Shown here in pieces: positions 39,101 through 41,060 of a stretch of DNA of 41,060 nucleotides. The DNA is from a virus (lineage: Duplodnaviria > Heunggongvirae > Uroviricota > Caudoviricetes). The position numbers were made by a program. Each line of letters begins with the position of its first letter. Position 1 is the stretch's first letter. Where the stretch lies: IMG/VR virus record IMGVR_UViG_2534682139_000017; one strand, 5' to 3'.

Positions 39101-41060
39101 AGGGTTAACGGACGGTACAGTTTATTCACTCTATACACCATCAGAGCAGTTTTATCCGCCTGGCGCACCAATCCCGTGGCCATCAGATACCGTTCCGTCT
39201 GGTTATGCCCTGATGCAGGGGCAGACTTTTGACAAATCCGCTTACCCGAAACTTGCAACCGCTTATCCGTCAGGCGTGATCCCTGATATGCGTGGCTGGA
39301 CGATTAAGGGCAAACCTGCCAGTGGTCGGGCCGTATTGTCTCAGGAACAGGACGGCATTAAATCGCACACCCACAGCGCCAGTGCATCCAGTACGGATTT
39401 GGGGACGAAAACCACATCGTCGTTTGATTACGGCACTAAATCCACGAATAACACCGGGGCGCATACGCACAGTGTGAGCGGTACAGCCGCAAGTGCCGGA
39501 AACCATACTCATAGTGTCACAGGCGCATCAGCAGTCAGCCAGTGGTCACAAAATGGGTCAGTACATAAGGTAGTGTCTGCGGCCAGTGTGAATACAAGTG
39601 CTGCAGGAGCGCACACTCATAGTGTCAGCGGCACAGCTGCATCTGCAGGTGCTCACGCACATACTGTCGGTATTGGTGCTCATACGCACTCTGTTGCGAT
39701 TGGCTCACATGGACACACCATCACCGTTAACGCTGCTGGTAACGCGGAAAACACTGTCAAAAACATCGCATTTAACTACATTGTGAGGCTTGCATAATGG
39801 CATTCAGAATGAGTGAACAACCACGGACCATAAAAATTTATAATCTGCTGGCAGGAACTAATGAATTTATTGGTGAAGGTGACGCATATATTCCGCCTCA
39901 TACAGGTCTGCCAGCAAACAGTATCGATATTGCACCGCCAGATATTCCGGCAGGCTTCGTGGCTGTTTTCAACAGTGATGAGGCATCGTGGCATCTCGTT
40001 GAAGATCATCGGGGTAAAACGGTTTATGACGTGGCTTCCGGCGACGCGTTATTTATTTCTGAACTCGGTCCGTTACCGGAAAATGTTACCTGGTTATCGC
40101 CGGGAGGGGAATATCAGAAGTGGAACGGCACAGCCTGGGTGAAGGATACGGAAGCAGAAAAACTGTTCCGGATCCGGGAGGCGGAAGAAACAAAAAACAG
40201 CCTGATGCAGGTAGCCAGTGAGCATATTGCGCCGCTTCAGGATGCTGTGGATCTGGAGATCGCAACGGAGGAAGAAACCTTGTTGCTGGAAGCTTGGAAA
40301 AAGTATCGGGTGTTGCTGAACCGTGTTGATACATCAACTGCACCGGATATTGAATGGCCAGCCCTACCGTAGGGTAAGATATATAAATTCTATAATTAGA
40401 AGTATCTTTCCATTTAAGGCTAGGAAGGGGGGCTTGGAAAACGTAAGGAATCTCACACCGAGATTATTTTTATATATCAGGTGTCTGATTTTTTGCTTTA
40501 GCTCTTAAAATGGTTTGCCGCGAGGTTTTGAATTCTTGGGCAATGTCACTTATATTTATACCTGACTTAATTTGCTCTAGTACCCTCTGTATTTGTTCAT
40601 CATTTAACACAGGTGGGCGACCAAATCGCTTTCCTGCGCCCCGTGCTCTTAATATCCCTGAATGAGTACGCTCAAGTAAAAGGTCTCGCTCAAATTCAGC
40701 GACTGCTGAAATTACTTGCATCATCATTTTTCCAGGTGGACTGGTCAGGTCAACGCCCCCCAATGCTAAGCAATGCACTTTGATACCTGCTTTGGTCAGT
40801 TGTTCCACCGTTTTACTGATATCCATTGGATTACAACCGAGGCGATCCAGTTTTGTGACAATCAATGCATCACCTCTTTTCAGTCGATCAAGCAACTGGT
40901 TAAAACCAGGACGCTCACTGGTTGCTGCTGAGCCGCTAATTTGTTCTTCAATTATTTGCTGAGATTTGATGTTAAAACCTGCACTTTCGATTTCCCGACG
41001 TTGATTTTTGGTTGTCTGTTCCAGAGTTGATACCCGACAGTAAGCATAAATTCGAGACAT

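What the first reader, a model, noticed from the sequence alone, without database searches (positions are those of the whole stretch)
40373..41060. Serine invertase next to stf/tfa with no alternative fibre cassette in the window
Pin/Gin/Cin-type invertases normally flip a segment carrying alternative fibre C-termini and tfa genes. Here only one stf/tfa pair precedes the invertase, and only 97 bp separate tfa from the invertase 3' end. I could not recognise a gix/hix-like crossover site by eye in 40373-40469 or in stf. The invertible segment may lie beyond the window on the invertase promoter side, or the invertase may be orphaned.
Basis: partly seen in the sequence, partly recalled or inferred. 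Interest (0 to 1): 0.5.

Follow-up and report, generated by a model that had tools for sequence, protein, structure and literature searches.

The report
Orphan transposon-derived recombinase beside tail fibre
The gene is a PinR/PinQ-type serine recombinase, apparently a leftover transposon resolvase that sits at the end of many E. coli lambda-like prophages; it has no fibre-switching cassette of its own, so the locus is ordinary and already described in E. coli K-12.

Summary
Window 40470-41060 (- strand) encodes a complete 196-aa serine recombinase, 97 bp from the tfa stop. There is one stf/tfa pair and no gix/hix-like site.

The protein is not a Gin/Cin/Pin-type invertase: it is 37% identical to PinE, and only 18-21% in the DNA-binding domain. 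It is a PinR/PinQ-type protein (85% identical), in the same stf-tfa-97 bp-pin-ydfK-ynaM module as K-12 Rac and Qin. This block occurs in 2675 of 5426 complete E. coli genomes.

Its nearest other relatives (72-80% identical) are TnpR resolvases next to Tn3-family transposases, each with a three-subsite res. A collinear but degraded res lies just beyond the window end; the crossover subsite is the most eroded.

The prophage clade has Cys76 where the catalytic Arg (R71 of Tn3 resolvase) should be: 80/80 viral loci have Cys, 109/109 relatives have Arg.

Twelve kb beyond the window hold no inverted fibre cassette, only a direct tfa 3' fragment. All 59 of the 80 related loci with a detectable tfa have it in the same orientation.

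Best reading: an orphan, resolvase-derived recombinase with no cis target. A 2025 paper reports that PinQ inverts the e14 P segment in trans.

The parts
36876..39797 (+). stf, side tail fibre gene (973 aa), the only copy
   Evidence: Pfam phage_tail_N, Phage_fiber_2, Collar. No second copy in the window or in 12 kb beyond it.
39797..40372 (+). tfa, tail fibre assembly gene (191 aa), convergent with the recombinase
   Evidence: Pfam Caudo_TAP, E 1.3e-43. Its last ~110 bp travel with the pin module even in 21 related loci where homology to Rac ends there.
40373..40469 (.). 97-bp tfa-pin spacer. The same length is found in Rac and Qin. The 38 bp next to the pin stop are still homologous to the DNA downstream of a Tn3-family tnpR.
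   Evidence: 97 bp in Rac and Qin, about 90% identical; homology to the plasmid transposon runs from -82 to +38 around the CDS. No crossover-like site.
40470..41060 (-). PinR/PinQ-type small serine recombinase gene (196 aa), complete, with its start codon at the window end
   Evidence: 85% aa identity to PinR/PinQ, 80% to plasmid TnpR P0013. dN/dS against pinR is 0.34.
41028..41030 (-). Codon of Ser11, the predicted catalytic nucleophile (equivalent to S10 of Tn3 and gamma-delta resolvase)
   Evidence: Alignments; codon read (tga on the + strand = TCA on the - strand).
40833..40835 (-). Codon of Cys76 (TGT), occupying the position of the catalytic Arg (R71 of Tn3 and gamma-delta resolvase) in the DRLGR motif
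   Evidence: Cys in 80/80 IMG/VR loci; Arg in 109/109 close non-prophage relatives. Tn3 R71A gave no recombination and about 1e-3 of the cleavage rate (PMC2794168).

Best explanation
The gene is a PinR/PinQ-type small serine recombinase. It belongs to a conserved accessory block (tfa 3' end, 97 bp, pin, ydfK/ynaE, ynaM/ynfT, sometimes a ybcY-like methyltransferase) that sits between the tail-fibre genes and the attachment site of lambda-like phages, and therefore at the far end of the prophage from the tyrosine integrase.

It is not the invertase of a fibre-switching cassette. By descent it is a Tn3-family transposon resolvase (tnpR) that has lost its transposase partner.

Its own recognition region is a res-like array of three subsites immediately upstream of its start codon, just outside the window. 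Subsites II and III flank its -10 box and are mostly intact. Crossover subsite I is eroded, mainly in its left half and centre.

The protein also carries Cys in place of one of the catalytic arginines.

Inferred consequence: in cis it can at most bind its own promoter region, giving resolvase-style autoregulation, and it has no partner site to recombine with. Nothing at this locus flips. Any recombination it performs must be in trans on other elements, as has been reported for PinQ on the e14 P segment.

Shown: family membership, synteny, the res homology, the Arg-to-Cys change, and the absence of a cassette or crossover sites. Inferred: autoregulatory binding and reduced catalysis.
For: - Identity: 85% to PinR/PinQ, and the same gene order and 97-bp spacer as in Rac and Qin.
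- The same block is present in the isolated phage HannyBb, between the tail genes and int/xis.
- The block is in 2675 of 5426 complete E. coli genomes, almost always chromosomal.
- Relatives at 72-86% identity occur on 1671 plasmids. They lie divergently next to Tn3-family transposases: this is annotated in L013, and the L007 ORF has DUF4158 and DDE_Tnp_Tn3 domains.
- The tnpA-tnpR spacers of seven plasmids share three subsites. The prophage upstream region aligns collinearly with them. It retains 10/18 conserved positions in site I (4/11 in the left half plus centre), 15/19 in site II and 11/14 in site III.
- BLAST homology to the plasmid transposon runs from -82 to +38 around the CDS.
- Cys76 replaces R71: 80/80 loci; Arg in 109/109 relatives.
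- Tn3 resolvase R71 mutants do not recombine (PMC2794168).
- No Gin-type site, no second res-like site, and no inverted fibre genes within 12 kb beyond the window.
- tfa converges on pin in all 59 of 80 IMG/VR loci where tfa was detected.
- A tyrosine integrase at window 1-1164 handles integration.
Against: - Kirigo et al. 2025 (PMC12529663) report that over-produced PinQ raises e14 P-segment inversion from about 30% to about 88%. If that effect is direct, the enzyme is catalytically competent despite Cys76.
- The gene is intact in thousands of genomes and has dN/dS 0.34. It therefore has some selected function that I cannot name.
- Tn3 R71 mutants are described as 'not inert'.
- Site I keeps 6/7 conserved positions in its right half, so a weak crossover site is not excluded.
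- The sequence beyond 41060 comes from a near-identical genome, not from the window's own record.
- DNA binding at sites II and III, and autoregulation, are inferred by analogy with Tn3 and gamma-delta resolvase and were not tested.
- The promoter scan gave no above-chance signal.
Confidence: 0.62

Rival explanations
1. It is an active invertase that works in trans. It flips Gin-type invertible segments (such as the e14 P segment) in other prophages of the same cell, changing surface or fibre proteins and blocking phages such as T2.
For: - PMC12529663 reports three things. PinQ over-production shifts P-segment orientation. T2 induces pinQ/pinR. Deleting stfP or stfE removes the effect.
- Most genomes carrying the window's allele also hold a pinE-like gene elsewhere. 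The number of matching places per record rises when pinE is appended to the query; for FWSEC0007 it goes from 3 to 4.
- Purifying selection, dN/dS 0.34.
Against: - Cys76 sits at the catalytic Arg position.
- The DNA-binding domain is only 18-21% identical to PinE and Gin, and 68% identical to TnpR relatives whose half-sites (TGTCCGAAA) are unlike pix (TTCTCCCAAACC).
- In the paper itself, a pinE deletion locks the P segment even though pinQ and pinR are present. I found no in vitro test, catalytic mutant or PinQ-in-delta-pinE test in the main text.
- An 88% bias is not what a freely reversible inversion would give. PinE gave 49%.
- The tested protein is only 85% identical to this one.
Confidence: 0.25
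2. One reading: a normal cis fibre-switching system whose invertible segment, with alternative stf/tfa ends, lies just beyond the window on the promoter side.
For: A tfa-like fragment does exist 2.3 kb beyond the window end (L001 15379-15591).
Against: - That fragment is in direct orientation. It is a C-terminal remnant only (aa 132-182), it matches the DLP12 tfaX position, and ompT/envY follow it.
- There is no stf fragment on either strand.
- There are no crossover-type inverted repeats.
- Orientation is invariant in all 59 related loci (of 80) where tfa was detected.
- The NAR paper's BLAST survey found no inversions in Rac or Qin.
Confidence: 0.03
3. It is a functionless relic, a decaying transposon gene hitch-hiking in a prophage accessory block.
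For: - The transposase is lost, the crossover subsite is eroded, and the catalytic Arg is lost.
- Eight substitutions are shared by both prophage alleles at positions that are at least 97% invariant in relatives.
- dN/dS is higher within the prophage clade (0.34) than against the plasmid gene (0.15-0.19).
Against: - The reading frame is intact in all 80 IMG/VR loci.
- About 95% of E. coli records with the block cover at least 80% of it.
- 27 synonymous against 33 non-synonymous differences is well below the neutral ratio of about 1:3.3.
- The gene is kept in a viable phage.
- Phenotypes have been published for pinQ and pinR deletions.
Confidence: 0.1

Closest known systems
PinR (Rac) and PinQ (Qin) of E. 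coli K-12
   Same: 196 aa and 85% identical. Same convergent position 97 bp after tfa, the same ydfK/ynaE and ynaM/ynfT neighbours, and the same 318-bp upstream region (98% identical). Same Cys76.
   Different: This is a minority allele: at least 99% matches in 138 of 2806 records. A roughly 900-bp patch covering the tfa 3' end, the spacer and the CDS is 84-94% identical to Rac, while the flanks are 97-100% identical. The prophage sits at the DLP12/ompT site rather than at the Rac or Qin sites.
TnpR resolvases of a Tn3-family transposon group on enterobacterial and other plasmids (e.g. WP_000086537 on p2RM9088; WP_012695450 next to tnpA on pPROV279-1)
   Same: 72-80% aa identity over the full length, and 68% in the DNA-binding domain. 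The upstream region is collinear, with subsites I-III and a -10 box. DNA homology runs from -82 to +38 around the CDS.
   Different: There is no transposase here. Crossover subsite I is degraded. The catalytic Arg is replaced by Cys, with seven further shared changes at otherwise invariant positions. The gene is embedded in phage DNA.
Gin/Cin/Hin/PinE DNA invertases (Mu G, P1 C and e14 P segments)
   Same: Small serine recombinase fold with a C-terminal HTH domain. Located next to tail-fibre genes. Gene orientation resembles P1 cin, convergent with the fibre operon (P1 arrangement from my own knowledge).
   Different: 34-38% identity overall and 18-21% in the DNA-binding domain. No 26-bp inverted sites, no alternative Sv/U cassette, and no orientation polymorphism.

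Membership tests
Gin/Hin/Cin/Pin (Din) DNA invertases | High sequence identity among members, including the DNA-binding domain (PinE versus Gin: 83% in the catalytic domain, 62% in the DNA-binding domain) | tested here: not met
   The window protein against PinE and Gin: 40-42% in the catalytic domain and 18-21% in the DNA-binding domain. HMMER E-values to Gin (1.8e-27) and to gamma-delta resolvase (5e-23) are similar.
Gin/Hin/Cin/Pin (Din) DNA invertases | Two 26-bp crossover sites (hix/gix/cix/pix consensus) in inverted orientation flanking an adjacent segment | tested here: not met
   0 matches at <=4 of 16 mismatches in the window plus 12 kb beyond it. The e14 pix controls scored 1 mismatch each. 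The inverted repeats found are short (16-29 nt) and imperfect, and none forms a crossover-site pair.
Gin/Hin/Cin/Pin (Din) DNA invertases | The invertible segment carries alternative fibre C-termini and tfa genes in opposite orientation | tested here: not met
   The only extra fibre-related sequence is a tfa 3' fragment in direct orientation. tfa has a single orientation relative to pin in all 59 of 80 IMG/VR loci where tfa was detected.
Gin/Hin/Cin/Pin (Din) DNA invertases | Fis-dependent recombinational enhancer in or near the recombinase gene | not tested
   Fis sites are too degenerate for a meaningful scan with these tools.
PinR/PinQ-type prophage recombinases | At least 85% identity to K-12 PinR/PinQ and the same tfa-97 bp-pin-ydfK/ynaE-ynaM module | tested here: met
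PinR/PinQ-type prophage recombinases | Trans inversion of the e14 P segment, as reported for PinQ | not testable with these tools
   Literature only (PMC12529663). The protein tested there is 85% identical to this one.
Tn3-family TnpR resolvases | Gene divergently adjacent to a Tn3-family transposase | tested here: not met
   Met for the 72-86% identical relatives. At this locus the upstream neighbour is ydfK, not tnpA.
Tn3-family TnpR resolvases | A res site with three resolvase-binding subsites upstream of the gene, subsite I being a palindromic crossover site | tested here: inconclusive
   A collinear homologue is present beyond the window end. Conserved positions retained: II 15/19, III 11/14, I 10/18, with the centre of site I at 0/2 and its left half at 4/9.
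Tn3-family TnpR resolvases | Full catalytic set: Y6, R8, S10, D36, R68, R71 (Tn3 numbering) | tested here: not met
   Y7, R9, S11 and R73 are present. D36 is Glu, as it is across the whole subgroup. R71 is Cys76 (PMC2794168).

The most novel reading that the evidence does not exclude
PinR/PinQ-type proteins, this one included, may be catalytically crippled derivatives of a Tn3-family resolvase (Arg to Cys at the R71 position, decayed crossover subsite). On this reading they survive as sequence-specific DNA-binding regulators or as modulators of true invertases. The published 'PinQ inverts the e14 P segment' effect would then be indirect, acting through PinE or through selection, rather than catalysed by PinQ.
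Probability: 0.3. Interest if true: 0.55.

Novelty: already known. Interest (0 to 1): 0.3.

Why it matters
As a scan finding it is ordinary. It is the Rac/Qin-type pin module, present in about half of complete E. coli genomes, and the lack of an adjacent invertible segment has already been noted in print.

Two details I did not find in the papers I read could matter to people working on these recombinases.
- The family descends from a Tn3-family resolvase and keeps a vestigial res at its promoter.
- Every prophage copy examined lacks a catalytic arginine that Tn3 resolvase needs.

Together these raise the question of whether the recently reported anti-phage trans inversion by PinQ is direct. 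They also warn annotators against calling these genes 'DNA invertase' and then expecting a fibre switch next to them.

Tried and rejected
- **TGTACATA-N4-TATGTACA palindrome.** It lies upstream of pin (L001 13531-13550) and looked like a candidate site. It is unique, but it is imperfect in Rac, Qin and HannyBb. It turned out to be the spacer plus the left half of res subsite II.
- **Loose half-site pair scan.** With <=5 mismatches it returned as many hits as shuffled sequence. Only the subsite II match (3 mismatches, correct 14-bp spacing) stood out.
- **Promoter and terminator consensus scan around pin.** Nothing above chance.
- **Rfam.** The only hit was the IS009 model on the tfa 3' fragments, below its gathering score. 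No RNA family matched the conserved 318-bp spacer.
- **NCBIfam.** No family reached its cut-off; XisF, Mpi and CcrB gave only sub-threshold hits.
- **Host genome search for trans targets.** I could not read the whole host genome. I obtained only an indirect count, showing that a pinE-like gene exists elsewhere in most carrier genomes.
- **The serine recombinase as the prophage integrase.** Rejected, because a tyrosine integrase sits at window 1-1164.

Full report
**Observation.** Window 40470-41060 (- strand) is a complete ORF of 196 aa whose ATG is the last codon of the window. It has the Resolvase catalytic domain (E 1e-37) and the HTH_7 DNA-binding domain. Upstream on the + strand lie lambda-type J (32753-36151), lom (36218-36817), stf (36876-39797) and tfa (39797-40372). 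The tfa stop and the recombinase stop are 97 bp apart. A tyrosine integrase occupies window 1-1164, so the window is a whole predicted prophage running from int to this gene. The description in the finding is accurate.

**What lies beyond the window.** The last 13,461 bases of the window match E. coli O103:H2 FWSEC0007 at 13,460 positions. I used that genome (L001; window 39600 = L001 12001) to read on. Past the recombinase start there is a 318-bp spacer. After it come ydfK, a ynaM/ynfT-type small gene and a ybcY-like SAM methyltransferase, all on the recombinase strand. Next is a 213-bp tfa 3' fragment on the + strand, that is, in direct orientation (146 nt, 82% identical to the tfa 3' end). 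Finally there are a hydrolase gene, ompT, envY, ybcH and nfrA, which is the right flank of the K-12 DLP12 site. tblastn with Tfa and both halves of Stf finds nothing else on either strand in 12 kb.

**Search for crossover sites.**
- Inverted repeats are short (16-29 nt) and imperfect, and none has the form of a crossover-site pair.
- A 26-bp Gin-family site consensus gives no hit at <=4 mismatches of 16 specified positions. The two pix sites of e14 score 1 mismatch each.

There is therefore no alternative fibre cassette and no invertase-type crossover site, inside the window or beyond it.

**Which recombinase it is.**
- It is 85% identical to K-12 PinR and PinQ and 37.5% identical to PinE.
- Against solved structures, Gin (E 1.8e-27) and gamma-delta resolvase (E 5e-23) are about equally distant.
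- In the DNA-binding domain it shares 21% with PinE and 18% with Gin, whereas PinE and Gin share 62%.
- Rac and Qin have the same layout: stf, tfa, a 97-bp spacer, a convergent pin, ynaE/ydfK and ynaM/ynfT, then the prophage end.
- The isolated phage HannyBb carries the same gene between its tail genes and int/xis, so in the phage map the block sits where lambda has its b region.
- The spacer-pin-upstream block is found in 2675 of 5426 complete E. coli genomes, nearly always on the chromosome. The window's allele (at least 99% identity) is in 138 records.
- In 80 IMG/VR loci the order and orientation never vary. tfa converges on pin in all 59 loci where tfa is detected.
- In 21 loci homology to Rac ends about 112 bp into tfa, so even there the last ~110 bp of tfa still accompany the block.

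**Where the family comes from.** A search of the large protein collection showed that the nearest relatives outside this prophage clade are 72-81% identical. A tblastn search with one of them (P0013) matched 1671 plasmids of Klebsiella, Escherichia, Erwinia, Yersinia, Providencia, Sinorhizobium and others.
- On pPROV279-1 the gene lies 159 bp from a divergent, annotated Tn3-family transposase.
- On p2RM9088 the divergent ORF is a roughly 990-aa transposase with DUF4158 and DDE_Tnp_Tn3 domains and one internal stop.

These relatives are therefore TnpR resolvases. Their tnpA-tnpR spacers, from seven plasmids of gamma- and alpha-proteobacteria, share three elements:
- subsite I, a 12+2+12 palindrome (for example TGACCGAAACCG GT CGGTTTCGTACG);
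- subsite II, TGTCCGAAA-N14-TTTCGKACA;
- subsite III, next to a TATAAT box just before the start codon.

This is the classical res layout of Tn3 and gamma-delta, as I recall it from my own knowledge.

**The res remnant at this locus.** The prophage upstream region (L001 13462-13590, starting one base after the window end) aligns collinearly with these spacers. I counted the positions that are conserved in at least 6 of the 7 plasmids. Of these it keeps 15/19 in subsite II, 11/14 in subsite III and TATGAT for the -10 box. In subsite I it keeps only 10/18: 6/7 in the right half, 4/9 in the left half and 0/2 at the centre. BLAST-level homology to the E. coli plasmid copy runs from 82 bp upstream to 38 bp downstream of the CDS at 82% identity. 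No second res-like site exists in the window or in the next 12 kb. The gene thus looks like a captured tnpR with a truncated or decayed res. Homology fades around the crossover point of subsite I, which is where res-mediated exchange would cut; that last point is inference.

**Active site.** All prophage copies read DRLGCN where the relatives read DRLGRN.
- Cys76 (codon at window 40833-40835) aligns with R71 of Tn3 and gamma-delta resolvase and with the equivalent Arg of Gin, in both HMMER and MAFFT alignments.
- Cys is present in the window allele, PinR, PinQ, HannyBb and 80/80 IMG/VR loci.
- Arg is present in 109/109 close relatives.
- In Tn3 resolvase, R71A gave no resolution in vivo, no recombination products in vitro, and a cleavage rate about 1e-3 of the parent enzyme; R71K likewise had severely reduced cleavage and recombination (PMC2794168).
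- The other key residues are in place: Y7, R9, S11, R73. Glu stands for D36 throughout the subgroup.
- Cys76 is one of eight substitutions shared by both prophage alleles at positions that are at least 97% invariant in the relatives.
- The gene is not drifting freely. The window allele differs from pinR by 27 synonymous and 33 non-synonymous changes (dN/dS 0.34). Against the plasmid gene dN/dS is 0.15-0.19.

**Literature.** Kirigo et al. (NAR 2025, PMC12529663) state that PinQ and PinR were previously uncharacterised. They remark that PinQ does not invert DNA next to itself, and their BLAST survey found no inversions within Rac or Qin. They report that over-produced PinQ raises inversion of the 1797-bp e14 P segment from about 30% to about 88%, which blocks T2 adsorption.

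The same paper says that a pinE deletion locks the P segment although pinQ and pinR remain. PinE over-production gives 49%. In the main text I found no in vitro assay, no catalytic mutant and no test of PinQ without PinE. Taken with Cys76 and the unrelated DNA-binding domain, direct catalysis by PinQ-type proteins is, in my view, not yet established.

Trans action cannot be excluded on grounds of target availability. Most genomes with the window's allele also contain a pinE-like gene elsewhere (one search compared).

**Conclusion.** The locus is the known Rac/Qin-type pin module, in a minority allele, at the DLP12 site of an O103/O121/O45-type STEC lineage. The recombinase is orphaned in cis. 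It is not a Gin-family invertase but a resolvase-derived protein whose only nearby cognate DNA is a vestigial res overlapping its promoter. The most likely local activity is binding to that region (inferred). Recombination, if any, is in trans. The finding rates low for novelty. The transposon origin, the res remnant and the Arg-to-Cys change are modest additions that make the published trans-inversion claim directly testable.

Noticed in passing
L001 12606-12751 and 15379-15524 (window 40205-40350 and about 2.3 kb beyond the window end): The pin-ydfK-ynaM-methyltransferase block is bracketed by direct repeats of the tfa 3' end (146 nt, 82% identical). Rfam model IS009 matches both copies below its gathering score. 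This could allow gain or loss of the block by homologous recombination. From memory (not checked here), K-12 DLP12 has tfaD-ybcY-tfaX without pin.
   Followed up: partly
L001 14561-15229 (beyond the window) and L008 3915-4574: The ybcY-like SAM methyltransferase near pin is 53% identical (E 8e-88) to a methyltransferase immediately downstream of the TnpR homologue on a 28-kb Erwinia amylovora plasmid. The recombinase-methyltransferase pairing therefore recurs on unrelated replicons.
   Followed up: partly
window 40180-41060 (L001 about 12580-13480): Compared with Rac, a patch of about 900 bp (tfa 3' end, spacer and pin CDS) is 84-94% identical, while both flanks are 97-100% identical. dS within pin is about 0.2. 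This suggests import of a diverged pin allele by recombination rather than fast protein evolution.
   Followed up: partly
L001 13462-13779 (the 318 bp just beyond the window end): The pin-ydfK spacer is 98% identical in the window lineage, Rac, Qin, HannyBb and PhiR68_2. It is more conserved than the pin CDS itself. Only its pin-proximal ~130 bp is explained by the res remnant. No Rfam family matches the rest.
   Followed up: partly
window 27894-28358 and 28201-30135: The tail tape-measure gene is split into two overlapping frames; both pieces match TMP_2. It is annotated as frameshifted in the matching RefSeq genome, so this prophage is probably defective for tail assembly.
   Followed up: partly
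proteins P0004-P0008: A few singleton database proteins are chimeras, with a plasmid TnpR-type N-terminal part (carrying Arg) and a PinR-type C-terminal part. They may be real recombinants or assembly artefacts.
   Followed up: no
window 37200-38300: The Stf N-terminal half is a long Ala/Ser/Thr-rich repeat region, followed by three 132-nt tandem units (L001 10658-11053 = window 38257-38652). Long spurious ORFs overlap it in other frames.
   Followed up: no
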